In this document: positions 23,710-56,077 of the stretch, in pieces
Layout of the letters: each line of letters opens with the position of its first letter
Position numbering within the stretch: the stretch's first letter is position 1
DNA from: Raillietiella orientalis
Taxonomy: Eukaryota
NCBI GenBank assembly: GCA_036172245.1
Contig: JAYWIR010000083.1
Location: 248,001 to 312,000 of the forward strand
Reading direction: 5' to 3'
Length of the DNA stretch: 64,000 nucleotides
Translations under genes and position numbers: made by a program
Notes under the pieces: generated by a model
What the model was told of the DNA's origin: nothing
What the model saw: only the letters and a program-made list of their open reading frames with translations
Databases searched by the model: none

Positions 23710-24250
23710 GTTTATTGCTGTTTGTTTTTGGAAAGATTACAATGGTTTCTGAGTCATTCTGAGGTTGCTTTATTCCCTTTGAAGACGGTTAGGTGGGAGA
23801 TTTTCCAACAGTCGGTGCTGAGTTTGCTGTGATCCGGATCCTAGTTACAGTTACAATGACGTGTTCGGTGTCCAAGTATTTGATTGATCTTTGATATTTT
23901 GTATCCAATACTATGCCGTTCTTCAGGGATTCAATGAAGCCATATTGGATGGTGTCTTTGTTATCTCTGGTGAAGTCGAAGATAGTTATGGGCTTCCCAT
24001 TGTATAAGTGGGCGGCGTCTCTTCTTTTGCAACTTTGGAGCTCCAAATAAATTGCACTGCGTCCAAGAAAGAGGTACTTGGCGAACCTCGGTTTCCTCTT
24101 TCGTCCTTCATACAGTACATCTCACGTGTGTGAGGTAGTCTGGCGAGTATATCGAGAATGTCATGTTGCCATTCTCGTATACAGAGGCCCTTCCATTGGA
24201 TTAGGGAAGTGATTTGCCTCTATAGACGAAAGCTTTCCATGACGAATTGA
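23710..24250 (-). pseudogene. rep: Endogenous CRESS-DNA virus Rep, SF3 helicase half (copy A, decayed)
   Basis: REWQHDILDILARLPHTREMY..FAKYL..SCKRRDAAHLYNGKPITIFDFTRDNKDTIQYGFIESLKNGIVLDTKY is homologous to the Rep at 26006-27096. A minus-strand AATAAA lies at ~23712. Confidence 0.85.
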
Positions 24251-24624
24251 ATGTTTTTTGCATAGAAAAGCGTGCTTTTCCAGAAGAAAAGTTCCTTTGT
24301 TTTTCCTAAGTACACCCTCTTTTGTGGTCCTAAGATTAGTTCTTTCGGCCGTTAGGGACGTTGTTTTCAGAAACGTTGCGTTTCTTCCAATATAGCGATC
24401 GCATGGCTTTCGTTGTCGCGTTACTTGCAACTGGACTGTCCTGGACGTGCACACGGAACGCTTGGCAACCCTCATTGCGTGCAAGGAAGACCTTACCATC
24501 AAAATGAGAACAAAGCGGGATTCCTCGCTAGTACGTTTACTGCCAGCCATTGCCGTGGACCTATAGGAGGGCTACTGCATAGCCGCAAGCGTGATCTGCC
24601 GAGTCCTCGTGTTGTGAAGAAAAA

Positions 24625-25458
24625 TTGGTCCTGTTTACCCGAAGTCCGGTCCCGCGAGTCACCCAGGTCGAAAAGTTTTTCCAAAGCTGAGTCCGGAGCG
24701 AATTGGGCAGAAAGAGCAAGAAATCGTGGGCGTAAGCCTACGCGGCAGGCGTGCCAGGGCAAGAGCTAGGCAGGGTAGCCAGACTCCCTGTACGCTCTCA
24801 CCACCAACTCAAAGTAGATGCTGAAGAGAAGGGACTCGCTCCGCATCTTCTTCCCGGCTTCCCACCCCCCGGTCACTTGAGAGTCCAGCACTCCAGCGAC
24901 CTAGCTGAGCCTCGCATTGTTGCAACTGCCAGAAGGTCCTGGCGAGGAACAAATTGGCCTCCAGGTGCGCCCGGGAACAGCGTATGTCTGTTGCGGACTG
25001 ACCACGGATTCCGCTACCCGTCCCAGCCTCTCAGCCTAGAGTTTGGCGAGCAACTTCGCGTCCACATTCACCACAGTGATGATACGCCAGTTGCCAACGT
25101 TGCGCAAGTCTCCTCCCTTAGGAAGGAGACGTATAGCTGACCGGAACGAGTTGGGGACATCGCCGCGTTAACGGATCAGCAAACACAATTTCAGCACCAG
25201 GGGAGCCAACTCTGCCGCGAAGTGTTGGTAGAATTCAGCTGGCAGGCCGTCTTCTCCTGGTGCTTTGTTTTTTTTGAGTTTTTTCATGGCGGAGACAATC
25301 TCCGCCATCGTAAATTCCAGTTGGAAGGTGTGACGTTCCTCCTCCCTTAGCGCGGGAGCACCCTCTGGCAGCACACGCTGCGCAAAAGGGCGCTCTGGTG
25401 GTCTCTTGGCGTGAAGGGAGGAGTAAAAATCCCGCAAAATGCGGCCAACCTGCTTTGG
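24625..25458 (-). pseudogene. Tx1-like ORF2 fragment (linker to RT), decayed
   Basis: RDFYSSL..KAPGEDGLPAEFY..LPSSCPGTPA..AYAHD..GTGLRVNRT. Continues the fragment at 27203-27688. Confidence 0.85.
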
Positions 25459-25474
25459 AGTAATCCTGATATGT

Positions 25475-25576
25475 CGTCTTACCTATTCCACCGACTGGGT
25501 CATAGTACCAGTAAATTTTTCGTGTATCTGGTCTGGTTCTTATAATCTTGAGGATGTCCATTTGCCAATTTTGCAG
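25475..25576 (-). pseudogene. rep: CRESS Rep Walker A fragment (copy B)
   Basis: LQNWQMDILKIIRTRPDTRKIYWYYDPVGGIGKT; 33 of 34 residues identical to Rep copy C at 26462-26563. Confidence 0.9.
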
Positions 25577-25599
25577 TCATAAGGTGGAAGATGTAATAA

Positions 25600-25976
25600 G
25601 TGGTCATAAGGAGACAAGCGGTTGTTTGTCTCGTTATTTTGGTGTGCGTGGCATACGTCTGTATTCGAGGGCTTATATAAGGAAGGACATGCAATGTTAT
25701 GGAGGGAAGCTGGAACGTTATATGCGTTGTCCTTGGATAGACTGTGGATACGGAGCAAGGCTGGACCCAGAGTTGAATGTGGAAATGTTTTTGAGTCGTA
25801 TGCACGTGATGAAGCATATGTCTGGAGTGGATATTCCAGACTCTATAAAAGAAGGTTGTCAGTCTGGTGTATGTCCAAAGAACGGACGATTGACTCAGGG
25901 TTATCCAATCTACAGGCTGACTCGTACTTTTTATGTGGAATTCAAGCACTTGAGAGACCCGCCATTGTATAATTGA
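25600..25976 (+). CDS. Probable C-terminal part of a CRESS virus capsid gene (convergent with rep)
   Basis: Open frame opposite to rep that stops 30 nt from the rep stop. It has a PWID motif and ends YRLTRTFYVEFKHLRDPPL, reminiscent of the circovirus Cap end (YVQFREFNLKDPPL). Confidence 0.5.
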
Positions 25977-26005
25977 TGAAAACAAAACTTGCAATGTATA
26001 TATGT

Positions 26006-27096
26006 TTATTGATCTATTTCTGGTGAGGGGGGTGACAAAGTGGAGCATGAGGAGTCGGGTGAATCGCGGGACTGCCCTGTACTAGGGCCTGAAGGGCAGG
26101 CCCAAGGGAGAACAACTCCAGCATCATCTAACATCCATGGACACAATTTTGTAGCTTCAGTCTTGCTGATATTCTTGACAACCCATCTGTCACTGGACAT
26201 CTTGGAGTAGTCAGGTTCCCAATTGGAGAAAACCAGGATGTGAGGTGGTTGAAAGTACTTGATACCGCCTTGGTACTTCGAGTCGAATATGATGCCGTTT
26301 TTAAGTGTTTCTATAAATCCATATTGTACGATTTCCTGATTGTCCCTGGTGAGATCGACAACTATAATGCGCTCGCCATTGTAAATGTGGGCGGCGTCCG
26401 CTTTTTTGCAGCTATGCATGTAAATAGCTGCTTTTTTAAGGTATAAGAACTTGGCGAATGCCGTCTTGCCTATTCCACCGACTGGGTCGTAGAACCAGTA
26501 AATTTTGCGTGTGTCTGGGCGAGTTCTGATAATTTTTAAAATATCCATTTGCCAATTCTGGAGTTGTAAATCGTACATAGGATTGGGATGTGTTCTGCTT
26601 CTTGTCAAACGGAAGCATTCTTTAACAAAGTTGATATTTTTCGAATAAAATTTCGTATGTTGCTCGAGTATGTCCAGTTCAGTGGCTCCGTTTTTTATTA
26701 GTTGCAGTATCTGGAATATTGTTAATTATTTTTGTTATTTTGTGAATAAAATAATTACCATGTCTGGTAGTCTGTGGTTTCTTTGTGGTCTTGTATGAGA
26801 CCGTACGTCCAGGCTTGGTGGTCCTCTTTCGTGCAGTACCGTAAGTTGCTCTGCAGAGATCCTTTGGCGCGTTCGAGATGTGCTTTCTCGAACGGAGGTC
26901 GTTTAAGGCTTGGCAAGGTGCGTGGATCGCGTAATTGAAAATAGCCTTGTAGGTGAGGCGTTCCCGTTGTGGCTGTTTTCTTGCCAATAACTGCGTATGT
27001 GCATTGGCGTCTGCACCAATCCTTGATTTGTTGTAGTTCTTCGTCGAGGTAGTTACACAGTGTGAAACACCAGTACAGAAAGTGCCCGTAAGGCAT
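26006..27096 (-). pseudogene. rep: Endogenous CRESS-DNA virus Rep, near full length, split near 26710-26760 (copy C)
   Basis: RCR motifs I WCFTLCN, II TPHLQG and III YCTKE. Helicase Walker A YDPVGGIGKT, Walker B IIVVDLTR, motif C VFSN, and SSDRW. The stop codon overlaps AATAAA. Confidence 0.95.
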
Positions 27097-27202
27097 GGTT
27101 GACTGCAGGTAATTCTGTCGAGGTGAGACTGGTTTGTGCCTTACGGTGTGGTGGTATAAATACTCGCCAACTGCGCAGTAGATGCAATCTGGTTAGTAAT
27201 CC

Positions 27203-27688
27203 GCTCCAGCCTTGATTTCCGCCAGGCGACGAACGTCGGGCTTGTTGGAGAAACGACGGGCCTGGAGATAGTTCCTGTGGTTCCTCACGCCTTCGCCGAA
27301 ACCTGGAGGAAGTTGATGGAGGGGAAACTGGTCACAGAACTCTCGGACTGAGCGTTTTATTTTATCCCATTCAGCGAGAGTCTGCAGTTCGCAACCACGC
27401 AGGAATGCGCGCAGATGTTCGCGTGCTCCTGCGAGTCGCAACCAGTCCCCCGGCAGGCGCCACGCTTCGGAGGGTGGACCTCTGTCGCGCGGATGGATGT
27501 TGATTACTAGCCGAGGGTGATCGGACAGCTCCGACGAATTGCCCCTCGAGTCCCCACCCGCGTGCACAGGTGGTTATCGAGGAACACGTGGTCGATTCTG
27601 CTTCGCACCCCGGCTTCATCTGCCAACAAGTTGCGCGCGTGCATAGCCGCACACAACTCGTTGACCAGTTGTACTCTTAGGAGCGCAG
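27203..27688 (-). pseudogene. Tx1-like ORF2 fragment (APE end and linker)
   Basis: NELCAAMHARNLL..RIDHVFLD..LSDHP..WRLPGDW..YLQARRFS..RRLAEIKAGA matches the intact ORF2. Confidence 0.9.
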
Positions 27689-27754: not shown

Positions 27755-28385
27755 GTGTTGTAGGCGCATTTTCTTGGTGCTCCTCGGTGCCGGGAATCCC
27801 CCCTTCAGTGCGCTGGTGGTTCAGTGGTCGTTCAGGCGGCAATGCCTGACGAACACCAGTATCAGGAGGCGATGGCCACGTTCCCAGTGACTATGGAGGT
27901 GGGGGCGTGGGCCTCCACAGAATCTGTCTCCTTTGCGGGGTAGCCGAGTGGTAGCGGCGCGTAGGCCTGCAGCCGCGGCGGAAATGAATGCCTACATGTA
28001 GGGCTACAACCCTCATTGCTCTACAAGGCGATTTGTACTCCGTGAAGTACGTTCGACCCTACGATGCCGATGTGCGCTCTCAACGTGTTAAACAAAAATC
28101 TCGGCGCGATCACCATCCGAAGCGGGGGGCAGAACGTTGAAGTGATTTGCAAAGGGCAGATCTGGCTCGGCGGCTGCCCAAAACTCCCGTTACGATGGGA
28201 AGCTCACTCTTCCCACTACAGTGGACCGCAGCATTGTGGTCCATCTGTTTGGTGTTCTCGCGCGAATGCGCTGTGAATTCCGTGCCGCCCTCAAGCAAGA
28301 TGGTAGCGTGCACGCGCAGCAGTTCAAGCCTTTTGTGGATTTTACGGTACATCAGTGCGAACTCTCGGCCACGCATATTTGCCTC
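27755..28385 (+). pseudogene. Decayed 5' UTR and ORF1 start of a Tx1-like LINE
   Basis: ATGCCTGA at 27842, MEVGA, and IRSGGQNVEVICK match the ORF1 at 39600. Confidence 0.75.
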
Positions 28386-28990
28386 GTACCCTGGAATCGG
28401 CTCGTACGGAGAGAGGGTCGGGCTCCCGAATAGCGCCGCGGTTCTTGCGGCGTCCGGAAGGCTCCGTTCGGCCCTTGAAAATCCGAGTGAGGTAGAACGA
28501 ATCTCGTGCCAGATCGTACCCATATCCGCAGCTGGTCTCCAAGGTGAACAGCCTCTAGACGATAGAATAATGTAGGTAAGGGAAGTCGGCAAACCAGATC
28601 CGTAACTTCGGGAGAAGGATTGGCTCTGAGGGTCGGGCCGGTCGGGCTTGGCCGGGAAACGGTAGTGGTTTCCTCGCCGTGGCCGGGAGCTAACGGGAGA
28701 TCGGCGTTTCCTCGCTCGGTCGGGGCGCGCGCGTGCCGGCGGGTCCGCTCGGGGTACGCTCAGCGGCTGCCTGCGGCGCTCGCCGGTCGCGCGTCGTCCT
28801 TCGTAGCGATACCCGTCTCCCATCCCGGCCTTGCGCGGGATTCCGACCCGCGGAACGGCCTCGCTTGACGCTCCGGTCGGCCGTCGCCCGCCGCCGCGCG
28901 CCGTTTTCTTCTCGGCGCGCGGCCGGGCGCTCTGGTCCCGGAGCGTTTCGGCCGGCATGCAGCGATCGACTCAGAACTGGCACGGACAAG

Positions 28991-29125: not shown

Positions 29126-32100
29126 GTTTTATTTTCCACGTTTTTGATATATACAAAGAATGGTAACCCTAAGAAGGGGAAACGCACTGGGCGACACTGT
29201 AGTGTTCGCGCTGGTGGGAGACAAAGTTGTTGGGGAACACTGGGCCTAGAGGTCAATTAAGTCCCTAAACGCCGCACTGCACCATGGTGGGTGAGCCGCT
29301 GGAGTAAGTTCCATCGCGGCAGGCTCGACATCAATGGCAGGCCTCGTGGTGGTGTGGTCAAAGTAGATATCTCGAGCCGCTCGGATCACTGAGCACACAA
29401 TCTTCGGGCGAACAGCCTTTATTTCGTGTGCACTCAGGCCGAGACAGCTGAGAACGGCATCGTTGTTCGGGTGCCAGCTTCCCAGCGACCCGACAACGAG
29501 TGCCTCCACTTTAACTCTGAGACCCTGTGCTTGGTATTCCCTCTCAGCTCCTCGGTATTTGTCGAGCTTTCGGGTCCGCGCTGCATCCAGGGCTTCCTTC
29601 CTGTTTTCAAACGGGACGGTGACATCCAGGATCAGCATGCGGTTCCCGTCTGTCGCGACGATATCAGGACGCAGGGAACTGTTGATGCTCGGGTCCGAAC
29701 GGTCAATGGCGAGGTGGCGCCATTTCGGACGAGCGAGCGGGTCCAAGAGATCCAGGAATTGGTTATGCCGCTGCATAATGCTGGTCCCCAAGTGCTTCAC
29801 GCAGTGGCACAGCACATGCGAGAGAGTTTCTTTGGGGTAACCACAATGGCGGCAGGCTTCATGAAAGCCGGGGCGTTTCCTGTTACCGTTGAGGTACAGC
29901 TGATTGAGTCTCGCCCTATGGATGAATCGCCAGTCACAGAACCTGATCAATTCTGGTCGTTCAAGGAACGCCATAGAGGCTGGGTGCAGGGCCACGCAGT
30001 CGATGATCCTGCCCTGGTCAGGTTTGGCCCGGAGTTTTTCACTGCGACTAAGGCGCTGCAAGCCACGAAGTGAGCGGGCAACGATCTTGCGATCGGATTC
30101 CCGAATCGTTCTTGTGGCAAGCTGTATTGAGACTTGGGTGTTGGTCACTATCCATTCAACGCAGAGCCTCTTCGAGGCCTCTCGCGCACGAGACCAGTAG
30201 TCCATGGGATCACCAGAAGGCAAATTGAAAGGGGGATCAATGTTGCCATTCAAGTATCCCGCTAAGAGGTCCGGTGAGGGTTCTCGTTTGGATTTCCGAC
30301 GAACCGTTTCACCGAGCGATGCCCAAGCCATTGCACGGATAATGAGATCTGGGCACGTCAGCACCTTAAAGGCAGAGTCCACGGCCATAATGTCAGACTC
30401 CTCAGCAAGGAGGACGAGGCCTAGGCTCCCTCTGGCCACGGAGCCATACAGATATTCCGTTGACGAGGCCTGAGTAAGAGGAAGTATGTCCTCTTTGAGT
30501 GCTTTTCTCAGTTGGTTGTCTAACGCAGCCCAGAAAGATTTCTGCTTCGAGCCCATCCGAAGCGCATGCACGAACGAAGGAAACACAAAAGTCTTAAGGG
30601 CATCAATCTTTTGCCACGGCGCTAGGGGAGCGTCAAGCACTTTGGCTACGTGCGAGTGGATCTCCTCGTCGAGGGAGTCACTGTGTATGGCGTCAAAGCC
30701 TACCGGCCTACCTAAATATTGGTATGTGCCAGAGTCCGACAGCACAGTTATTGGTTGTCCACTGATATTAAACTGGCGTTTGCCGGCAGCACGAGGAGAG
30801 CGAGGGTCAAGGTGGAGGGAAGCACATTTCTTGGGATTAAGATTCAGCCCTAGCCGTTGAGCCATCAAGCTCGCGCAGTCGAGGGCCTGATGTAGGGAAG
30901 CGGGATCCTCAGTCATCACGACTAGATCGTCTGCGTATGCCAGTATGTTGGCGCCTGGGACACTCTGCTTCAGCTGCACACACAGAGGTTCTAGGGCAAT
31001 GTTAAATAGAAGCCCAGATAGCGGGCATCCTTGCTTAACACCCCGAGTGACCGCAATAGGGTCAGTGAGACCGTCCACTGTCACAACTTGCGTGTAATTC
31101 TGGGCATACATCTGGCAGATCAGTTCAGTAAAGAGATTGCCGGCGCCTGCACATTGGAGCGAGGAGAGGAGTTGAGTATGGGGGATGGAGGCAAATGCGT
31201 CTTTGAGGTCCAGCCAAGCGACACATAGCGGTCGGTGATGCCGTCTGCTATAGTCCATTTGGTGTCTCAGCATGAAATTATGTTCGAGAACACCATCGTA
31301 TGGCAGGAATCCTTTTTGATGCGGGCCAAGCACCTGATTGCTCAATATCCACTCCCGCATGCGGCGCGCGAGGCATTTAGAGAAAAGTTTGCCCATGGTC
31401 CGGCTAATCGCAATCGGACGAAACTGAGACAGGTCATCCAATTGGGTGTCCTGCGATTTCGGTATAAGAGTTGTGCGCGACTCTTTCCACTCCGGGGGAA
31501 CCCGGCGGTGGGCAAGACATATTGAAAATCGCCGTGAGGAACCGGCATTCAGGATCAAGCCGGCGGAAGGCAGAGTACGGTATACCGTCTGCTCCCGGCG
31601 CGGTGTCCTCACATAGGCGTAGACAGCTTGCAATTTCCTTCGGGTCAAAGGAGGAAAGGTCCATTGGCTCATGGGTGGGGGCCAGTTTAGGGTCCCAGCT
31701 CAGAGGCTGAAACCCAGGCCGAGCTGTGAAGAGGTCCATGTAGTACGCACGAATGGAGTGTCTGTCCACTTGGCATCTAACCGGGGGTCCGTCGAGGATG
31801 AGCCGAACTGCTCGTCGACGATTCTGGTTGTAGAGCCGCTGTAGAGAGCGTGGTGACAGGCTGATTGGACGCACATTATTCTTGGGAACAGTGAAAGGGC
31901 GTAGGCCCAGGGCGTTCCGAATGGCACTGTACGAGGCGTTCAGCGCTCGCATCGCCAGGCCCCAATTGTCTGTTGTTGCTGGCTGAGTCCCAATGTCGTG
32001 GAGAAGCCTTGCAGCTTCCCCGAGGGGATCCAGGCGCTCCCTCTGATTGTCACGCTGGTTATCACGGGCACGTCTCCGGACGGGGGGCGTTGAGGGACGG

Positions 32101-34587
32101 GCAGGGACAGCAATGCTGTCGGGTGAAACTGTCAGTTCACCAATGTTCTCCTCGTCCAGGACGGCGAATCGTGAACCCGGGACAGGGGTAGCGGAACGCG
32201 GAGATTCAGGCTCACTCGAGAAGGTAATGCGTCTGGTCGGGCGCCGAGCTCCACGGGCCAGGTTCCCCGGGGCATTCGGAGCACGTTTCCGCCGACTTGT
32301 CACTATTTGCCATTCCTGATTGCGCGAGGGATCAGGTAATGGGATGGAGGGTGCACTCGTCTGGGGAACATGCTCAATGACCCCTTGGGAGGGTTGGCTG
32401 GTGGCCTGTGGGGTAACGGTGGTACGTTGGCGAGTTCGAGGCGGGACTGGAAGGGTTCCCTGGCCCCTAAGACCACGCGTGTACCGCCGTTCCTCTGCCC
32501 TGTTTAGCGAGTCGTGCCATCGAGCATGATTCGCAAGAGCTTTGCGGTTAAAGAAGTGTTTCTCGCAGTTGTGCTCAGGGCAGGCGAGTGGCGCTGACTC
32601 CTCAAACCGGATCACTCGCGGGCCACAGCGATGCCTCCAGACTGGTATCTGCACTTGCGCATTGCAACGGCTACACACGAGATGGGCTCTCTCAACCGGT
32701 ATCCAGTGCGCGGTGCGCAGGTGGCGGCGTAACGACCCCAAGGTGGATTTCGCCTGTTGCGTACTGGTATGCCACCTGCAGCGCGGTAGTGGACAAGCCA
32801 TAGTAGTGCTTAGTGGCAGATACACTAGGAGGACGTCGTCCTCAGTTAAGGCCGATGGCATTGCGGGTGCCAGGTCAGTTACGGTTCCCTGGGGGCGAGC
32901 CGGAGCCAACGGTTCAGTCACATGAGGAACTGGGGATGGAACGCGATTGACCGGTCTCCGATCGTGATCCTGTAACTCTATTCGGCCATGGCTCGCCTGC
33001 ATAATGCGTAATTGCCGTTGGAAGCGGGGTATGACTGGGCGCTGCCGGCGGCGTCTTGGTCTTTTCCCCTCGACCGCGCGCACGTACGCTGGATGCACAG
33101 GCGGAGCAGGCGGGGGAGAACGAGATATCTGTACTATGTGTTCACTTCTCGGGGAGACTTGCGCAAGCAGTTCGGCCCCAGTCTGAGAAGGAGACGCAAG
33201 AGTCAGGGTGGAGTGACCAGAGAGCCGCGACTCCTGCACTGGGGTGAGCACTCTCGACGCCACATTGCACTGTGGAGGGCGAGTGAAGTAGTCCAGCTCA
33301 GCCTGGGAGAGTCGAGTCAAGAGAACTCGTGGCTGAAGAGCCTGGTGGGAGCTTCCAATCCCCCCCGTCGGAACCGAGACAGGCGGTTCGAGGAGAGGGG
33401 GTGGCAGAGAAAGGCGACGCTCTTCCACAGCCGATGTCATGGGTACTTCCATGTCAAGGATGGAGGGTGTAGCGTTCATCAGTTCACTAGTTTCATTCCG
33501 ACCTTTGCACTTTGCAGATCGAGGGCGATCCTCGTTCTGGTGAGGAGTACTGTGGATGGCAGTTGTTGGCACGTTGAACCACTTCTTGTGCAGTATTGAA
33601 GTGTCCATTGAGCTGCCTGAGGAGTCGGGGAAATCCGCTTCATCCCAAGAGTTGGGATAGTCAATCTCATCTCCAAGGTCCTCGCGGCCTTCGTTCGCTG
33701 CACCAAGGGCTCTGTCCATATGTAAGTGTTTCCATTTATGGTGCGCCTTTCGCAAGGATGGGCGCCCAAAGGAAGCATTACACTTAGGGCACTTGTACTT
33801 CAGAGCAAGTAGCATCTCAGGGAGTTCCACTGGAGGGTTGAGACAACGATGCTGAGAAAGCAGCATGTTTGTGTTCTCGCTCTTGTGGCACTGTAGGCAG
33901 AAAAAACGAACTGCCGGGATATGTACACCATGTATACGGCTCAAGTGTGCCTTAAGGTTCCGAACCCGGTTCTTAATGTCGTTTGCCGTTGTGGCGAACA
34001 CGCAGTCTGGGAGAGGACAGGGCACAGGAGTGTAGGTTCCATGGGAAATCCAAAGTTCGCGCTCCACGGAGAGCGTACAATGCGACGGAGGCATCGTTGC
34101 AAGATGGCGCCTGACGCTTCGCGTGGTCACGTGGGAGCGTGCCGCGGGGCCAATCAGCGCGCTGGTTCTCCGAGCGGACCAATGGGAGCGCACGGAAGGG
34201 ACGCTAAGTTTTCCCGCGCTCGGCGAGGGAACAAAGGATTGCAAGGAGCGATGTGGTAGATCGTTTAGATCAACCACCGTGGCTTAGATCCACACAAAGC
34301 AGTCACAGTAGGAGTGATGAGGGCCCAGGTGGTCGGTTCGAAGTGCCAATCCCTCTTACCTTCCCAACATGTGTGCTCTCTGGTCTTGACCATGGCAGCA
34401 CACAGGCGGGCGACGGAAATGTCCACAGCAGCCACAAAATTCACCACAAATGTACGAAAGTTGGCAAAAAGGTTCACTGTGGGCAGGGGATGCACTGAAC
34501 GAAGAATCACTAGTGGTCATCACTGAGAATTTTCCACAATCAGAAGTTAAAACCTCATGCAGCGTCGGAGCTCCACTCAGACACGTC
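29126..34587 (-). mobile_element. Full-length RLE-type non-LTR retrotransposon (NeSL/Utopia/R5-like), antisense in 28S
   Basis: Bounded by 28S on both sides. N-terminal zinc fingers; RT (FRPIA, DLKDAF, GVKQGCPLS, YADD, YLG); DWRFIHRARLN; CRHC..H...C; RHN; RPD...DV...KLDKY. The 3' UTR ends AATAAAAC. Confidence 0.95.
29246..34094 (-). pseudogene. ZF-RT-RLE polyprotein ORF with a single frameshift at ~31520
   Basis: ORFs 31434-34277 and 29246-31672 join as ..FLTAIFN/ICLAHRRVPPEWKESRT. The first in-frame ATG is at 34094. No other lesion is visible. Confidence 0.9.
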
Positions 34588-34915: not shown

Positions 34916-35300
34916 ACGCTGCTCCGCACCAGGACGAGTTGGCTGGTGGTGATAAGGGAGTCCGGGCCGTGGATCCGGTGTCCGTCGACGTTCGGCTCGT
35001 GGTATGGTTAAAGTAGATGTCCCCAGTCGCCCTGATAACATAGCACACGATCTCAGGGCGAAGCGCCTTTCTTTCGGTGTTGCTCAGACCCAGCCAGCTG
35101 AGGATCGCATCGTTGTTCGGGTTCGAGCTACCCAGCGACCCTACAACGATGGCGTCTACCTTGACCAACCATCTCTGTGCTTCATATTCCCTCCGCACGG
35201 TTCGGTACTTGTCGATCTTGTTGGCCGCGGCTTCATCCAGTGAAGCTTGTGTGTTGTCAAAGGGGACAGTCACATGGACTATGAGGATGTTCCGATTGCT
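34916..35300 (-). pseudogene. RLE-domain fragment of a related NeSL-like element (3' UTR missing)
   Basis: [40 protein letters not shown] is paralogous to 29270-29640. Confidence 0.9.
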
Positions 35301-35875
35301 TCTTGGGGTCTGGTGGGGTTATTTTCGCAGGGCCTTGCTGTGGACATATTGTTACGTGCTGAGATTGCTGTGATTCTTACTATCGTAATTTTCTTCAAAA
35401 CTTCGACATATGATGCTTCTTTTTCACACAGTGTAACGGTATCTTGCGGTGTATTGATTACGGAGGAAATAGATGTCATGTAGGATTCATTACTTCGAGT
35501 TTGCGGGATTAATTGTAGACGTTCATGCTGTAAAGGTTGGAAGGCATCCTCATTGCACCTAAATGACTTGTATGTATCGTATCTTGTGGGATATGCTGTT
35601 CCGAGCGTGGTTCCGTAAGTTCTGATCGTTTACATGTCTGAAGGGTGGATTCCGGTGGAGAGTTGTTTAAGGGGGGAACATTCGGTGCACTCTCAAAGGG
35701 GGTGAACAGATATTCAGCGGGCTCTTCGTCCAAGTTAACTAGCAAGTTGGATTTCTTGCTAAATCCCCAGTGTGCCATCTTGTGAGTTTTGAATAAATGT
35801 TTTTTATCAAAGCTCACGGAGCACTGAGTGCATCTCTGTTTCAGATCAGCGATGGGGTCATGTAGCGTGGTGTTC
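35301..35875 (-). pseudogene. Probable N-terminal (C2H2 finger) fragment of a related RLE element
   Basis: LKQRCTQCSVSFDKKHLFKTHKMAH resembles the third finger LKYKCPKCNASF...HHKWKH of the full element. Confidence 0.5.
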
Positions 35876-50909: not shown

Positions 50910-53900
50910 TTACATCCTTTGCAGGATGCCGGCAAGTTCAATCTGCATGTGTCCCAGATGGGTCCATCTGGCTGCCGTCCTCAAGAAGCGCAGGGCGTAG
51001 CACAAGATGTCCCTATCGTTCGGTCCATAAGTGGCGGTGCTCCAAGCCGCTACAATCCCTCGTAGGCAGCAGAGGGCTGCAAGGGCTGCGGCAGGCGAAA
51101 GGGCGTCGCGCACGAAGAGGCGCTTTAAAACGTCTCTGGGAGCGTGCAAGGGTGCACCAACGGCTGTTGCAAAGCGCAACCACAGGGGCCGGAGAGCAAC
51201 ACAGTCAACGAGCAGGTGCGGGAGAGTTTCTCGTTCCCCGCACCTGACACAGTTTGGGTCCACAACCCCCCTCGTCCAATGAGAGCGGCGGGCGTTGCTG
51301 GGGAGTCCCCAGTGCAACACCAGGAACGCCGACTCCTGCCACTTTAGGGGAAGGGCCCGAGTATTCCTCAGCACTGGCGGCCACTCGAGTTCATCCCGCG
51401 GGATGCACAGCAGCTCGCCCCAGCGCAACAGTCCTCTCGGTGGGTAACTTGGGATCGCGGCATCAGCAAGCTGACCCGTGGTCCAACCACCTTGTTCTTT
51501 CTCAGTGTCTCTGATCGTACACCGGACCTCCCACATGGCCGGCTGGCTACTGCCCAGATGTTCTTTGAGGTGGGACAGAGCTGTGGCAAGGGAGGTCTTC
51601 TCAGCCCACGCACTCAAGGCGGGCTGCACGATGATGTCCTGCAGCGTGCGGCTCTTATGATAGGAGTGCAGCATTCGCTGCCGCAACTCCGGGCTCGCTT
51701 TCTCGATCTGCGCCCACGTGCGAAGGCTTTCCTGCAACCAGGAAGTGCCGTTCGCGGGCCGGCAGGAGATCCAGGTGTTCTTCCTGGTCAGCTTCGCCAC
51801 TCGCCGAAGAGCCAGTCCGCAGTGGAACAGGTACCGGCGTTTGCGGCGCGCTAGGAAGGTAGACAGTCCCGCGCAGCCGCCGACTCGCTGAACCAGGCAT
51901 CGTGCAGGTTCGCACCAGCTGGCGCTCCACAACTTCGCCACTTGGGCGATTGTTCGGAACTGCAGCTGCAGTTCGAGACGCTCCAGCGTGAGGAGGCCAA
52001 GGCCCCCATCGCGACGAGGGGCGCACAAGTCCTTCCAACGCGCGCGGGGCCTTCCTCTGCCCCAGATGGCGATTCTGAGGAGGTCCTTTGTACGTGTTCT
52101 CACACCACGGGGTGGGGGACAAACAAAAAGCAAGGAGCGAAACAGGGGGGCCACGAAAGTGTTCCACAGCACGGCCCGTTCCGGCAAGAAGAACTTGCCA
52201 TCCAGGAACGGGCCGATCGCTCTCTCGGCCTTTTGGAGGCAGCAAGACCATTGTTCCGCTGGGGAGTAGTCCCCCAACGGCACACCGAGGTACTTAAGGT
52301 ACCGTACCGTGGGGATCCCCAAGCGAGACCAGTCTAGCTGCCCTGCCCACGAGGAACCGACTGCAACAACGGACGACTTTGCTCTGTTCACCTCCAGTCC
52401 TGTCCCGCGACGCAGCAGCTCGAAAAAGTTTTCGACCGCCGACGCCGGGGTGGACATGGGGAGCAGCAGCAGAAGATCGTCCGCATACGCCGCCAAGGCC
52501 GGTGTACCTGGGCACACGCGCGGCAGGCGACCAAGAGTCTCCCTGAATGCCCTCAGCACCAACTCGAAGTAGGTGCTGAAGAGCAAGGGGCTCAAGCTCT
52601 CACCCTGCCGTATCCCGCGGCGCACCGGCACACCGAACACGTTCCTTCCCCTGAAAGAAATGTTGGTCAGCGCGTCGCGCCAGCAAGAGCGCAGAAAGGC
52701 CAATAAGGAGGCCGGGAAGCCCAAGCGCTCCAGACGCTCCAGCAGGAGCTCCTGGTCGACACTGTCGAATGCTTTCCGCAAATCGACAGCGACCGCGAGG
52801 GCCCCTTCTCTCTCCCGACTATTCCGCGAACCACCAGCGGACGTCCCGCAAATCGGGCTGCCGACCTTGTTTCCTCCATTCATTCTGGTTCTTTGAAGTT
52901 CGAACCAGGTGTTCGCGAAGAGCAGGTTGGCGTCCATGCTTCGCCCGGGAACAGCGTAGGTCTGCTCCGGGCTGATGAAGCTTTCCGCCACTAGCCCCAT
53001 TCGCTCCGACCATAGCTTCGCAACCAGCTTGGCGTTCGCGTTCAGTACGGTAATCGGACGCCAATTGCTGAGGTTCCGTAAGTCTCCTCCTTTCGGTAGG
53101 AGACGCATACGTGCCGATGGGAAGGAGGCGGGAACGTCTCCTGTCTCCCGGATCAGCAGCGTTAGCCGCTGCACCAGGGGAGCCAGCTCCGCCGCGAAGC
53201 ACTGAATAAACTCCGCGGGCAGGCCGTCTTCCCCCGGTGACTTCCGCCTTTTGAGCTTCCCGATTGCGGTGATGATTTCACCCATCGTGAAAGGCTCGTC
53301 CAGGCGTACTCTCTCTTCTTCCCCGATCGCCGGGGCACCGTCCGGAAGCAAAAATTGGGAAAATTCCCGGTCCGGAGGCACCCTGGTGTACAGGGAAGAA
53401 TAATAGCCGCGCACTAGGCTACTCACCTCTGCCGGGGCCGAGTGCTCTTGGCCTTCGTCGTCCAGCAGGCTGGGCGACCCCGATTGCCAGGCCTGCCGCT
53501 CGGCCCCGGCTTTAAATTCCGCCAGTCTTCGGACGTCTGGTGTTCGGGAGTAACGACGGGCCTGCAGGTAAGCCCTATCGTTCCGAACACCTTCTCCAAC
53601 TCCTTTCGGGAGACGGTCCATGGGGAACTGTTGGCAGAACTCTCGCACCGAGACTTTCAAATCGTCCCAGTCGTCGAGCGTCTGCAGGCTGAAACCTCGC
53701 AAGAACGCGCGGAGGTGTTCCGCTGCGCCTGGCTTGGTCAGCCAGTCCCCCGGTCGACGCCACGCCTGCGCGGGGGGCCCCCTGTCGCGCGGGCGAATGA
53801 CGAGTTCCACACGGGAGTGGTCGGAGACTGCGGACTGTATCTTACCTCGCCTGCCCACGCGACAGCGCAGGTGATCGTCGAGGAAGACGTGGTCCACGCT

Positions 53901-54476
53901 CCGTTCCATCCCGGTATCCCCGGCTAACAAGTTGGATGCGTGCACCGCAGCGCACATCTCGTTAACCATGGTGGCCTCTGTCCTCGCCGCACCTGATAGC
54001 AGGCGAATATTAAAATCGCCGGCTATCAGGTGCGCCGTGCGCGCGCCTGCCTCCGACAGCCAGTCGCGCTTGAACGCACGAAAAAACGCCGTCCGTGCCA
54101 CGCGCGCGTGACCGCCGCTCGGCGCGTACACGTTCGTGACGACGAGATTGATGGAGTCGGACCACCTGAAGGTGATTTGCCCGACCCGACCTGCCTCATC
54201 GAAACGAACTTTCCGCACCGCGCGTTGTAAGGCAGGCTTCAGAAGGAAAGCGACCCCGCGCGTACGGCGGTGGCCGCATCGCCACATAAGCTGACCACCT
54301 GCTATCCGTTCGATCTCCCGCGCATGTTCTGCGGAAATCTCATGGATCTCCTGCAGCAGCACGAAGTCGAAGGCTTGCAAGGTGGCAGCTATGTCTCGTC
54401 TCCTGCCGTCATTGCAAAGCCCGTTGACGTTCCAGCTGGCGATGCGTATTTGACGGCAGGTGGCGAGTCCCGGCAT
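50910..54476 (-). CDS. ORF2: APE endonuclease, reverse transcriptase, C-terminal CCHC (1188 aa)
   Basis: SWNVNG, LQE, VYAP, GDFN, VDH, SDH; SPGEDG, WRPI, DLRKAFD, GIRQG..LSP, YADD, YLG; CVRCGERETLPHLLVDC. Confidence 0.97.
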   Translation of the reverse strand: MPGLATCRQIRIASWNVNGLCNDGRRRDIAATLQAFDFVLLQEIHEISAEHAREIERIAGGQLMWRCGHRRTRGVAFLLKPALQRAVRKVRFDEAGRVGQITFRWSDSINLVVTNVYAPSGGHARVARTAFFRAFKRDWLSEAGARTAHLIAGDFNIRLLSGAARTEATMVNEMCAAVHASNLLAGDTGMERSVDHVFLDDHLRCRVGRRGKIQSAVSDHSRVELVIRPRDRGPPAQAWRRPGDWLTKPGAAEHLRAFLRGFSLQTLDDWDDLKVSVREFCQQFPMDRLPKGVGEGVRNDRAYLQARRYSRTPDVRRLAEFKAGAERQAWQSGSPSLLDDEGQEHSAPAEVSSLVRGYYSSLYTRVPPDREFSQFLLPDGAPAIGEEERVRLDEPFTMGEIITAIGKLKRRKSPGEDGLPAEFIQCFAAELAPLVQRLTLLIRETGDVPASFPSARMRLLPKGGDLRNLSNWRPITVLNANAKLVAKLWSERMGLVAESFISPEQTYAVPGRSMDANLLFANTWFELQRTRMNGGNKVGSPICGTSAGGSRNSREREGALAVAVDLRKAFDSVDQELLLERLERLGFPASLLAFLRSCWRDALTNISFRGRNVFGVPVRRGIRQGESLSPLLFSTYFELVLRAFRETLGRLPRVCPGTPALAAYADDLLLLLPMSTPASAVENFFELLRRGTGLEVNRAKSSVVAVGSSWAGQLDWSRLGIPTVRYLKYLGVPLGDYSPAEQWSCCLQKAERAIGPFLDGKFFLPERAVLWNTFVAPLFRSLLFVCPPPRGVRTRTKDLLRIAIWGRGRPRARWKDLCAPRRDGGLGLLTLERLELQLQFRTIAQVAKLWSASWCEPARCLVQRVGGCAGLSTFLARRKRRYLFHCGLALRRVAKLTRKNTWISCRPANGTSWLQESLRTWAQIEKASPELRQRMLHSYHKSRTLQDIIVQPALSAWAEKTSLATALSHLKEHLGSSQPAMWEVRCTIRDTEKEQGGWTTGQLADAAIPSYPPRGLLRWGELLCIPRDELEWPPVLRNTRALPLKWQESAFLVLHWGLPSNARRSHWTRGVVDPNCVRCGERETLPHLLVDCVALRPLWLRFATAVGAPLHAPRDVLKRLFVRDALSPAAALAALCCLRGIVAAWSTATYGPNDRDILCYALRFLRTAARWTHLGHMQIELAGILQRM

Positions 54477-56077
54477 TACTGCTGGGAAAGTGATGCTGCG
54501 TCTCCCGCCTCACCTAGGGGCGGGACGCCGGCTTTCTCCTGTGCGGTGGGGGGCGGCTCGACGACCCCCTCCGTCTCCATCGGCTCCGTCTCGACCGATC
54601 GTGGGAGTTCAGGACTCGTGTCCATCTCTCCCACGCTCGCCGCACCCTCGTTTCCGGAGGATTCCTCTTCCTCGGAGGAGACGATCCTCCTCGGGTTACG
54701 GATTTTCCTTCCGGTCTTCCTCGGGGGTGCAGATGCGGATGGTGCGTGTCCGGTCTCCGGGTCCGAGTCCGAGGTCCCGTTCCCCCTCCTCTCGGCCGGA
54801 CGTCGAACGGCCTTCTTCCCGACCTTTGCGAGAGGCTGCTGACTGGCGGCGAGCTCGGCGGCGGCTTTTGCAAAGCCCGCGTCATCGCGGCTCTCCCCCT
54901 CGCCGCAGCCCTCGGACGCTGTTTGCACAGCGACGGGGCTGTCAGCGTTGTTGCACACGGCAACGTCCTGTTCGCACGGCACTTCGGCGTCTGCAAGGCG
55001 CTCCAGTGCGACCGTGCATTTTTTCAGTCCCTGCTTTTTCGCGGGTTTCGCGGCTTTTGCAGGGACTTTATTTTTATTATTTACGTCCTTTTTTTCTTTC
55101 TTTTTCTTTGGACTGACCTTTTGCCAGCCAGGCTCTTCTCCTTCCACCTCGGTTGCCTGCGTTTCTGCAGACGGGGTGGTCGGGATGCCCTTTTTGGCTG
55201 GCTCCGGGTCAACCGTATTTTCAGACGGCGGCCTGGTCTTGCCAGGCTTCTTGCTCGCGTTCGTGCCGCTCACGGCAGCAGCCGGCGCGCGCGAAGTCTT
55301 TTTGGGGCACACCTCTTCCGTGTGCCCGATTGCCTCGCACTTGCGGCAGGTGATGTTGGGGCAGCGTTTCTTCACGTGCCCCGTACCATCACAAAACGCA
55401 CAGTATTTGGGTTTCCCCAGATACCAGATGTCGACAGAATCTCCGTCGACTACTAGTTTATGGGGAACCTCAATGTCCTTATTCACAGTCACACGTGCCG
55501 CGGCGAGTCCGCTCAGGAGTCCGTCATAAGTACGGAACCTGTTCGGCTTCAGCCACAGCGCGTGTATGGTGCCGAATTTGCTGAGTTGAGCCCTGACGGC
55601 GCTCGGTGACATCCGCACGGTGATTCCACGGAGGTGGAGAACTATTGAGTTGTCCACCGGGACAGGGAAGATCTGGCGGCCCTCGACCCTGACGGGGGTT
55701 CGCAGCAGTCTTTGCGCCAACCCTGCTTCTTTGCAGGTCAACTCGACATGCTGTCCCCCGCTGCGGATGGAGAGACCCAGCAGATCCTCCTTGTTAACGT
55801 TCAAACGGTGGAGCTCCTTCTCGAAGGAGCGCGCCCCACGGTCATCAAACACCCGGCCTACCTTATACAGCAGACTCGGGTTGTAGTTGTAGGCCTTGTA
55901 GGCCTGGGCCTCGGCGATGGCCGCTGCAGATGGCGCGGCGACCGCGGCGCTGTAGTCCCTCGCCGGCGCGGGGGACGAAGCTTTCGGGGCAGGTGCCCCT
56001 ATCTCCATGGGTACGGGGGACGTTCGCCCGGCCCCCACCCCACATTCACTAGTGGCGGGATCAGGCATTTCTGCCAT
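54476..56077 (-). CDS. ORF1: nucleic-acid-binding protein with two CCHC knuckles (533 aa)
   Basis: The ATG at 56077 (MAEMPD, as at 59631) is the homologous start. CAFCDGTGHVKKRC and CRKCEAIGHTEEVC. The stop overlaps the ORF2 ATG. Confidence 0.92.
   Translation of the reverse strand: MAEMPDPATSECGVGAGRTSPVPMEIGAPAPKASSPAPARDYSAAVAAPSAAAIAEAQAYKAYNYNPSLLYKVGRVFDDRGARSFEKELHRLNVNKEDLLGLSIRSGGQHVELTCKEAGLAQRLLRTPVRVEGRQIFPVPVDNSIVLHLRGITVRMSPSAVRAQLSKFGTIHALWLKPNRFRTYDGLLSGLAAARVTVNKDIEVPHKLVVDGDSVDIWYLGKPKYCAFCDGTGHVKKRCPNITCRKCEAIGHTEEVCPKKTSRAPAAAVSGTNASKKPGKTRPPSENTVDPEPAKKGIPTTPSAETQATEVEGEEPGWQKVSPKKKKEKKDVNNKNKVPAKAAKPAKKQGLKKCTVALERLADAEVPCEQDVAVCNNADSPVAVQTASEGCGEGESRDDAGFAKAAAELAASQQPLAKVGKKAVRRPAERRGNGTSDSDPETGHAPSASAPPRKTGRKIRNPRRIVSSEEEESSGNEGAASVGEMDTSPELPRSVETEPMETEGVVEPPPTAQEKAGVPPLGEAGDAASLSQQ

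What the first reader, a model, noticed from the sequence alone, without database searches (positions are those of the whole stretch)
23710..27688. CRESS virus sequence interleaved and co-oriented with a LINE ORF2
Seen, minus-strand order: LINE APE/linker (27688-27203), Rep C plus convergent capsid end plus Rep B (27194-25467), the same LINE resuming about 20 codons later (25458-24625), then Rep A. All Reps share the LINE's strand. The nuclease half has circovirus-type motifs, while the helicase (YDPVGGIGKT, DLTR, SSDRW) is of the nanovirus/smacovirus type. Inference: an unclassified CRESS lineage infecting this host was captured more than once at a retroelement, as seen for EVEs in piRNA clusters.
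Basis: partly seen in the sequence, partly recalled or inferred. Interest (0 to 1): 0.7.

Follow-up and report, generated by a model that had tools for sequence, protein, structure and literature searches.

The report
CRESS virus fossils strand-matched to LINEs
Dead pieces of three small circular-DNA viruses are stitched between retrotransposon (LINE) fragments here, and viral pieces of the same lineage elsewhere in this genome mostly lie inside or beside LINEs on the same strand, which suggests the LINE copying machinery helps capture a DNA virus.

Summary
The layout is real, but the two LINE flanks come from different subfamilies: the left is 96-98% like one group, the right only 84-85% like that group, and 60 nt of LINE is missing. 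The insert starts within 2 nt of the viral origin nick site, keeps a 48-nt Rep intron and has no poly(A), so its template was unprocessed. Reps A, B and C are three viral genotypes. They belong to an unclassified ambisense lineage: circovirus-like nuclease, CRESSV4-type helicase motifs, nonamer on the capsid strand. It left 151 helicase matches in this genome, nearly all distinct genotypes. LINE hits lie in 57 of 89 viral loci against 1 of 20 controls, and the nearest LINE shares Rep's strand in 45 of 57. Most likely mechanism: template jumping during LINE insertion (0.5); the main rival is repair capture plus strand-biased retention (0.28). No small-RNA or read data were available.

The parts
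27200..27679 (-). LINE flank A: ORF2 end of APE domain and linker of an L1/Tx1-like LINE (label Tx1-like recalled; APE-RT-zinc finger ORF2 and CCHC ORF1 shown)
   Evidence: tblastn to the intact ORF2 at 50913-54509, residues 181-337; Pfam of that ORF2; 94-95% to copies on C110, C120, C76
27182..27200 (+). Rep-side half of the viral origin hairpin; the junction with the LINE is 0-2 nt from the nick site in the nonamer, which reads on the capsid (plus) strand
   Evidence: Sister copies have the full stem-loop (33 intact; folding z -3.2 to -5.0 in 3 of 3 tested, window copy z +0.2); junction alignment
27155..27162 (-). TATA-like box upstream of Rep
   Evidence: motif position, similar motif in sister copies; function inferred
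26759..27096 (-). Rep C exon 1: HUH nuclease (motifs I-III), frameshifted near its 3' end
   Evidence: Pfam Viral_Rep E 4e-15; frames compared with sister copies
26711..26758 (-). 48-nt GT-AG intron between nuclease and helicase parts, retained in the insert
   Evidence: 23 distinct introns of 32-51 nt at this site, 13 not a multiple of 3, only 5 open in frame; 15-residue gap at this spot against an unsplit exogenous Rep
26006..26710 (-). Rep C exon 2: oligomerisation region and SF3 helicase (Walker A GIGKT, Walker B DLT, DRW); AATAAA at 26010
   Evidence: Pfam RNA_helicase E 0.0015; Atlas nearest clusters Cressdnaviricota, score 0.98
25578..25976 (+). C-terminal 132 codons of the capsid gene, convergent with Rep
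   Evidence: 87% to the capsid of locus L013; full-length sister capsids have an Arg-rich N-terminus, a weak Circo_capsid hit below cut-off (E 2e-4) and Atlas score 0.95 to cressdnavirus clusters
25471..25577 (-). Rep B: 107-nt helicase fragment from a second viral genotype
   Evidence: 84% to Rep C, its best genomic match among 40 listed; 12 synonymous against 1 non-synonymous codon difference before the junction
24625..25462 (-). LINE flank B: ORF2 linker/RT of a different LINE subfamily, internally deleted and decayed
   Evidence: best match 90%; groups with L043/L044, 84-85% to the flank-A subfamily; 60 nt of LINE missing between flanks
23770..24620 (-). Rep A: decayed Rep (nuclease remnants plus helicase) of a distant sublineage, directly after the LINE
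   Evidence: 68-69% DNA identity to L125/L163/L165; nuclease remnant by tblastx and motif reading; tblastn

Best explanation
The stretch is a dead chimera of host LINE and virus: LINE A 5' part | virus C (from the origin nick through unspliced Rep into the capsid 3' end) | 107 nt of virus B | LINE B 3' part | virus A. Shown: the pieces, their polarity, three genotypes, an unprocessed template, and a genome-wide strand match. Inferred: a CRESS virus lineage replicated in the germ-line nucleus of this host for a long time. During LINE insertion (target-primed reverse transcription) the LINE polymerase jumped between templates and copied viral nucleic acid in the same run. The favoured form (about 0.3 of the 0.5) is a jump during second-strand synthesis onto virion single-stranded DNA. 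That strand has the same polarity as LINE first-strand cDNA, so the product puts Rep on the LINE sense strand and keeps origin and intron. The other form (about 0.2) is a first-strand jump onto unspliced Rep-sense read-through RNA or the complementary DNA strand.
For: LINE hits in 57 of 89 viral loci vs 1 of 20 controls (p 1.3e-6). Nearest LINE co-oriented with Rep in 45 of 57 loci, and 33 of 39 within 500 nt. Of 35 viral blocks with LINE on both sides, 25 are co-oriented on both, 10 mixed, 0 opposite on both (counted). All 11 blocks I picked as near-colinear interruptions are co-oriented; 7 of the 11 have a DNA-level empty site with 0, 2, 8, 9, 55-63, 60 nt missing or 64 nt duplicated. Junctions inspected show short microhomologies or filler. 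The template was unprocessed: no intron-less copy among 64 exon pairs, no poly(A) at the Rep end in 67 copies (2 had A-runs elsewhere), and the insert starts 36 nt upstream of the TATA box. Both capsid-only pieces with a LINE neighbour have capsid antisense to the LINE (L208; L096). A 177-nt host piece from this window sits inside Rep at two other loci in the same polarity. A non-LTR RT jumps serially on RNA or DNA templates in vitro (PMC8594491, passages). Template switching gives same-orientation chimeras (PMC13174262, passages).
Against: LINE-LINE neighbours in the same loci are also biased to one strand (43 of 62), and the virus-LINE bias exceeds this only modestly (58 of 68; p 0.036). 32 of 89 viral loci have no LINE hit, and 12 of 57 have the nearest LINE opposite. 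Controls came only from large contigs at hand-picked coordinates, so the enrichment may be overstated. The nick-site junction has one other example (L096), joined to an oppositely oriented LINE; 2 such ends among 107-214 block ends gives p 0.02-0.07, and 0.2-0.36 if the window is left out. The capsid-only test has n = 2. Target-site duplications around whole chimeric insertions were not mapped. Different subfamilies on the two flanks could reflect later recombination.
Confidence: 0.5

Rival explanations
1. Viral DNA was patched into double-strand breaks in either orientation by ordinary repair. Copies survived mainly in LINE-dense silent chromatin, where one-strand transcription (piRNA-cluster-like) favours pieces that yield RNA antisense to both LINE and Rep.
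For: Unspliced DNA-type inserts with small deletions and microhomology. LINE-LINE neighbours biased to one strand, 43 of 62. Mosquito EVEs sit in piRNA clusters (10.1101/127498, passages). Few LINE hits in control regions fits purging outside silent chromatin.
Against: Co-orientation falls to 9 of 16 beyond 1.2 kb. LINEs in this window lie on both strands. An ambisense virus gives antisense RNA to one gene in either orientation (inference). Capsid-only pieces lie capsid-antisense to the LINE in 2 of 2, the opposite of what silencing capsid mRNA would favour. 0 of 35 blocks are opposite on both sides.
Confidence: 0.28
2. Viral Rep itself joined the nicked virion strand to host DNA (HUH strand transfer, as in rolling-circle transposons), at least at the left junction.
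For: The window junction is 0-2 nt from the nick site and L096 is exactly at it.
Against: 33 origins are intact inside inserts against 2 cut at the nick. No capsid-side nick junction was seen in three origin searches. Host sequence beyond the nick does not resemble the nonamer. It gives no reason for the LINE association or strand bias.
Confidence: 0.08
3. One or a few old viral insertions became embedded in LINEs and were then copied with them, as proposed for CVe-Carnivora-4.
For: Strong LINE association; a few duplicated loci (L128/L132, L088/L178); the proposal in 10.1101/207399 (passages).
Against: Among 26 helicase copies median pS is 0.87 and pN 0.19, and only 1 of 325 pairs has pS under 0.1. 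Virus-LINE junctions fall at different LINE and virus positions in each locus.
Confidence: 0.04
4. Assembly chimera between contaminating free virus and host repeats.
For: No reads could be examined.
Against: The viral pieces carry stops and frameshifts. They occur in about 91 clusters on 59 contigs, many megabases long, with sharp, locus-specific junctions.
Confidence: 0.02

Closest known systems
CRESSV4-type Reps (unclassified group near nanoviruses and smacoviruses; PMC5923481, PMC8780604, passages)
   Same: Walker B second position Thr, a Glu in the helix after Walker B, and only the second Arg of the arginine finger (window sequence, against the descriptions).
   Different: No named member could be placed in my trees. 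The best exogenous identity is at most 51% per domain. The nuclease scores best against circovirus Reps. Rep is spliced.
Cyclovirus-type ambisense genomes (Circoviridae; nonamer on the capsid strand and occasional Rep introns, both recalled)
   Same: Ambisense layout, NAGTATTAC stem-loop on the capsid strand, Arg-rich circo-like capsid, intron in Rep.
   Different: The helicase does not match the full-length circovirus Rep in the PDB and has CRESSV4-type motifs.
High-copy CRESS EVEs of Varroa destructor, Lepeophtheirus salmonis (56-59 copies; PMC3198968) and Armadillidium vulgare (20; PMC4231630)
   Same: Many independent insertions of one host-specific Rep clade.
   Different: More loci here, often with origin and capsid. 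The passages I saw report no strand-matched LINE association; PMC4231630 judged retroelements unlikely to be involved.
CVe-Carnivora-4 (10.1101/207399)
   Same: Circoviral Rep flanked by non-LTR retrotransposon sequence.
   Different: There one insertion is proposed to have been amplified; here the copies are distinct viral genotypes with different junctions.
Retroelement-virus copy-choice capture in Aedes (LTR elements, RNA viruses; 10.1101/127498) and RNA/LINE-1 chimeras (PMC13174262)
   Same: Same-orientation bias between retroelement and captured sequence, read as template switching.
   Different: Here the elements are non-LTR, of two kinds (APE and restriction-like endonuclease types), and the cargo is an ssDNA virus with origin and intron retained.

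Membership tests
CRESS-DNA virus (Cressdnaviricota) | Rep with HUH nuclease plus SF3 helicase | tested here: met
   Pfam Viral_Rep and RNA_helicase; Atlas 0.98 to cressdnavirus clusters
CRESS-DNA virus (Cressdnaviricota) | Stem-loop origin with nonanucleotide | tested here: met
   33 intact stem-loops, TAGTATTAC in 14 and CAGTATTAC in 8; folding z -3.2 to -5.0
CRESS-DNA virus (Cressdnaviricota) | Single jelly-roll capsid | tested here: inconclusive
   Circo_capsid E 2e-4, below cut-off; Atlas 0.95 with low recognition value; structure model unusable, pLDDT 33
CRESS-DNA virus (Cressdnaviricota) | Small circular genome | tested here: inconclusive
   Capsid-origin-Rep-capsid continuity in several loci implies a circle of about 2.4 kb; no free genome found
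Circoviridae (Cyclovirus) | Nonamer on the capsid strand, ambisense layout (recalled criterion) | tested here: met
Circoviridae (Cyclovirus) | Circovirus-type helicase domain | tested here: not met
   Only the nuclease matches the full-length circovirus Rep in the PDB; the helicase alone has no such hit up to E 10
CRESSV4 group | Helicase motifs: Walker B Ser/Thr, helix-3 Glu, second Arg only | tested here: met
   DLT, GFIETLKNG, SSDRW in the window read by eye against PMC8780604 passages
CRESSV4 group | Rep falls inside the group in a tree with named members | not testable with these tools
   Only 2 papers mention the name, seen as listings; no member sequence available
LINE-made processed retrocopy (EBLN type) | Intron loss and 3' poly(A) | tested here: not met
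   0 of 64 exon pairs lack the intron; no poly(A) at the Rep end in 67 copies
Template-switch LINE chimera (U6/L1 type) | Cargo in the same orientation as the LINE | tested here: met
   45 of 57 loci; 58 of 68 junctions within 500 nt
Template-switch LINE chimera (U6/L1 type) | One target-site duplication around cargo plus LINE | not tested
   Outer ends of the chimeric insertions were not mapped
Uni-strand piRNA cluster | Elements on one strand over tens of kb | tested here: not met
   LINEs on both strands in the window; bias fades with distance
Uni-strand piRNA cluster | Production of strand-biased small RNAs | not testable with these tools
   no run listed
Plasmid Rep or Rep transposon | Plasmid homologue, or near-identical copies with fixed ends | tested here: not met
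   No match in 72,556 plasmids; copies saturated at synonymous sites; variable ends

The most novel reading that the evidence does not exclude
Non-LTR retrotransposon polymerases capture a single-stranded DNA virus directly. During insertion they jump onto virion DNA, sometimes at the 3' end left by the Rep nick, because that strand has the same polarity as their own first-strand cDNA. This would make LINEs a routine route of DNA-virus endogenisation with a fixed, predictable strand rule, and this genome a record of dozens of such events from one virus lineage.
Probability: 0.3. Interest if true: 0.75.

Novelty: new variant of a known kind. Interest (0 to 1): 0.52.

Why it matters
Insertion of ssDNA viruses into genomes is usually put down to chance repair (PMC2987831, passages, names non-homologous recombination or retroelements as general routes). 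A strong, local strand match between an unspliced DNA virus and two kinds of LINE makes the route testable. Virion-strand capture predicts the opposite Rep orientation for viruses with the nonamer on the Rep strand, whereas small-RNA selection predicts one-strand clusters. The copies also give host, genome layout, splice site and origin of a virus lineage with no close exogenous relative in the collections searched.

Tried and rejected
Sequencing runs: none was listed, so junction reads, splicing and small RNAs are unexamined. Free viral relatives: one weak hit in viral contigs (36% over 56 residues) and none for the capsid in metagenome contigs. Capsid structure from a single sequence failed (pLDDT 33), so no fold search was run. 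Naming the virus family failed: relatives are unnamed. The 8-nt repeat at both ends of the insert looked like a target-site duplication; rejected, because empty LINE copies have 60 other bases there and the left copy is partly origin sequence. A fixed element end at 27198 was rejected: sister copies continue through the origin. Nick-primed reverse transcription of LINE RNA as a general rule was weakened, because the second nick junction adjoins an opposite-strand LINE. The pattern had one letter too many and was not used. Six 'intron-less' pattern hits were, on reading, intron-bearing or unrelated sequence. Non-native virus-virus joins were 24 same-polarity and 5 opposite, but the first class includes simple deletions, so I give it no weight. 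A Pfam scan of 121 other ORFs from 1-37000 found nothing. Control regions from small contigs were not obtained, which leaves the size of the LINE enrichment open.
Full report
Setting. The window is G000:C83:248001-312000 of a 210-Mb, 491-contig assembly. It is a nest of L1/Tx1-like LINEs (intact ORF2 with APE, RT and zinc finger; the label Tx1-like is recalled) on both strands, plus restriction-like-endonuclease elements in a 28S fragment. The 28S looks arthropod-like to me from recall; no call tested the host.

Observation. On the minus strand: LINE ORF2 residues 181-337; viral DNA from 27198; Rep C (27096-26006); the capsid 3' end on the plus strand (25578-25976); a 107-nt Rep B; LINE ORF2 from residue 359; and Rep A from about 24620. 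Empty LINE copies have 60 nt between the two flank positions.

The flanks are not one copy. The left flank is 96-98% identical to L033/L034 next to the junction. The first 255 nt of the right flank is 84-85% to those copies, which are 98% identical to each other there, and 91% to L043/L044. Differences to L033 are 22 of 481 left and 72 of 525 right (p 4e-7).

The virus. Sister copies show an ambisense genome of about 2.4 kb. The stem-loop carries NAGTATTAC on the capsid strand: 33 intact in the loci scanned, folding z -3.2 to -5.0 in the 3 tested. The capsid has an Arg-rich start, a weak Circo_capsid hit and cressdnavirus look-alikes; its fold could not be modelled. Rep has an intron between nuclease and helicase: 26 found, 23 distinct, 32-51 nt. 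GT and AG were part of my error-tolerant search pattern, so the independent evidence is that 13 of 23 lengths are not multiples of 3, only 5 of 23 read through, and an unsplit exogenous Rep has a 15-residue gap at this spot. The nuclease is closest to circovirus Rep structures, while the helicase does not match them. The helicase has the motif states described for CRESSV4 (PMC8780604, passages). Mixed domain ancestry is common: 71% of unclassified Reps (PMC5923481, passages). In trees with the 70 best unnamed exogenous hits, the endogenous pieces form one clade for both domains (41 helicase pieces, support 0.99; 54 nuclease pieces, 0.96), at most 51% identical to any outside protein. There was no plasmid match and three weak matches among phage-collection records. 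No family can be assigned.

Many captures, not one amplified copy. The helicase gives 151 matches (150 of 297 candidates scored). The coordinates I entered (minor overlapping matches left out, three origin hits added) form 91 clusters on 59 contigs. Among 26 copies above 55% identity, median pS is 0.87 and pN 0.19, and 1 of 325 pairs is near-identical. In the window, Rep B differs from Rep C at 12 synonymous and 1 non-synonymous codon before the junction, and Rep A belongs to a distant sublineage: three genotypes.

Link to LINEs. I fetched 100 stretches: 99 of the 107 planned plus one origin locus. 99 had viral hits, and 10 overlapping or duplicate ones were dropped. LINE hits lie in 57 of 89, against 1 of 20 control stretches from large contigs (p 1.3e-6). 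The nearest LINE shares Rep's strand in 45 of 57 loci. By distance the junction counts are 27/32 (under 100 nt), 31/36, 16/20 and 9/16 (over 1.2 kb). Both APE and restriction-like elements show the bias (42 of 55 and 17 of 18 before de-duplication). Of 35 blocks flanked on both sides, 25 are co-oriented on both, 10 are mixed and none is opposite on both. Of 11 near-colinear interruptions picked by eye, 7 have a DNA-level empty site. Against this, LINE-LINE neighbours in the same loci are also biased (43 of 62), and the virus excess over that is modest (p 0.036).

Template. The window insert starts 36 nt upstream of the TATA box, keeps the intron and runs about 430 nt past the AATAAA. None of 64 exon pairs lacks the intron (60 have projected gaps of 31-61 nt), and none of 67 Rep ends has a poly(A) there. 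So the template was DNA or unprocessed RNA. The left junction is 0-2 nt from the nick site; one other copy (L096) is cut exactly there, but beside an opposite-strand LINE. The excess at the nick is suggestive only (p 0.02-0.07; 0.2-0.36 without the window). Of 73 capsid matches I fetched 4 regions outside my loci. One held a capsid-only piece between LINEs, capsid antisense to them; a second such piece in L096 has the same polarity.

Mechanism. Repair of a break in a LINE should take viral DNA either way round, so a local strand rule needs a polarised process or selection (inference). LINE insertion is polarised. A non-LTR RT jumps serially on RNA or DNA templates in vitro (PMC8594491, passages), second-strand synthesis is modelled as starting with a template jump (PMC7617806, passages), and template switching gives same-orientation chimeras (PMC13174262, passages). 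Here the virion strand is antisense to Rep, as first-strand cDNA is antisense to the LINE. A polymerase jumping between the two would give Rep on the LINE sense strand with origin and intron intact, and could join two LINE subfamilies and two viruses as seen. I put LINE-coupled template jumping at 0.5, repair plus strand-biased retention at 0.28, Rep-catalysed joining at 0.08, hitch-hiking amplification at 0.04 and artefact at 0.02; the rest is unassigned. None of these steps was observed directly.

Known and new. High-copy CRESS EVEs are known from a mite, a copepod and an isopod (PMC3198968, PMC4231630; passages). LINE-flanked circoviral elements are known from carnivores (10.1101/207399, passages), and same-orientation capture of RNA viruses by LTR elements from Aedes (10.1101/127498, passages). 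Intron-bearing Reps occur in arthropod CRESS viruses (PMC6186406, passages). PMC2987831 and PMC10675110 were seen as passages; all other papers only as listings; no supplements were opened, and they may hold orientation data. Searches listed no paper on strand-matched capture of an ssDNA virus by LINEs, but the library lacks most subscription papers. Earlier scan notes on other DNA of this genome describe the intron, single virus-in-LINE loci and same-direction arrays. I read the intron and origin before seeing them; they gave me the Dennis paper and the Anicreviridae lead, which I could not test.

Verdict. A real, dead virus-LINE chimera and one example of a genome-wide pattern. It is a new variant of a known kind: interest 0.52, rising to about 0.75 if direct capture of virion DNA by the LINE polymerase holds (probability 0.3).

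Noticed in passing
window 29126-34585: A restriction-like-endonuclease retrotransposon lies antisense in a 28S fragment and replaces about 29 nt that hold the R2 site (site recalled); a second such fragment abuts 28S at about 34870. Already noted by the scan.
   Followed up: partly
window 28236-28412; G000:C33:621173-621349 and C72:167154-167330: A 177-nt piece spanning this window's LINE ORF1/28S junction (94% identical) sits between two viral Rep pieces at two other, near-duplicate loci, in the same polarity as Rep. It suggests multi-template stitching from this locus or a copy of it.
   Followed up: partly
window 27293 and many LINE copies: Most of the 40 listed LINE relatives stop matching at the same point (query position about 388 of 486), suggesting a common internal deletion or a recurrent insertion site in this family.
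   Followed up: no
L146:2570-2606: The virus-to-LINE junction has filler with short repeats resembling the viral origin flank, and 64 nt of LINE is duplicated on both sides of the virus.
   Followed up: partly
L117, L126, L164, L172: The few loci where viral pieces lie in opposite polarity, mostly an inverted capsid segment.
   Followed up: no
L206:2974-3867 (OP947160.1, Pinkberry virus LS07-2018-MD00): A 19.6-kb record in the phage collection carries a CRESS-type Rep, 29% identical to this lineage over 97% of the query, beside a methyltransferase and a tail gene.
   Followed up: no
P0002 (MCK5919361.1): A metagenome protein labelled Methylococcales with two tandem helicase stretches of this type and no nuclease evident; probably a misassigned viral or host sequence.
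   Followed up: no
window 35300-35830: An AT-rich stretch of about 500 nt between two retrotransposon fragments with no Pfam match; origin unknown.
   Followed up: partly
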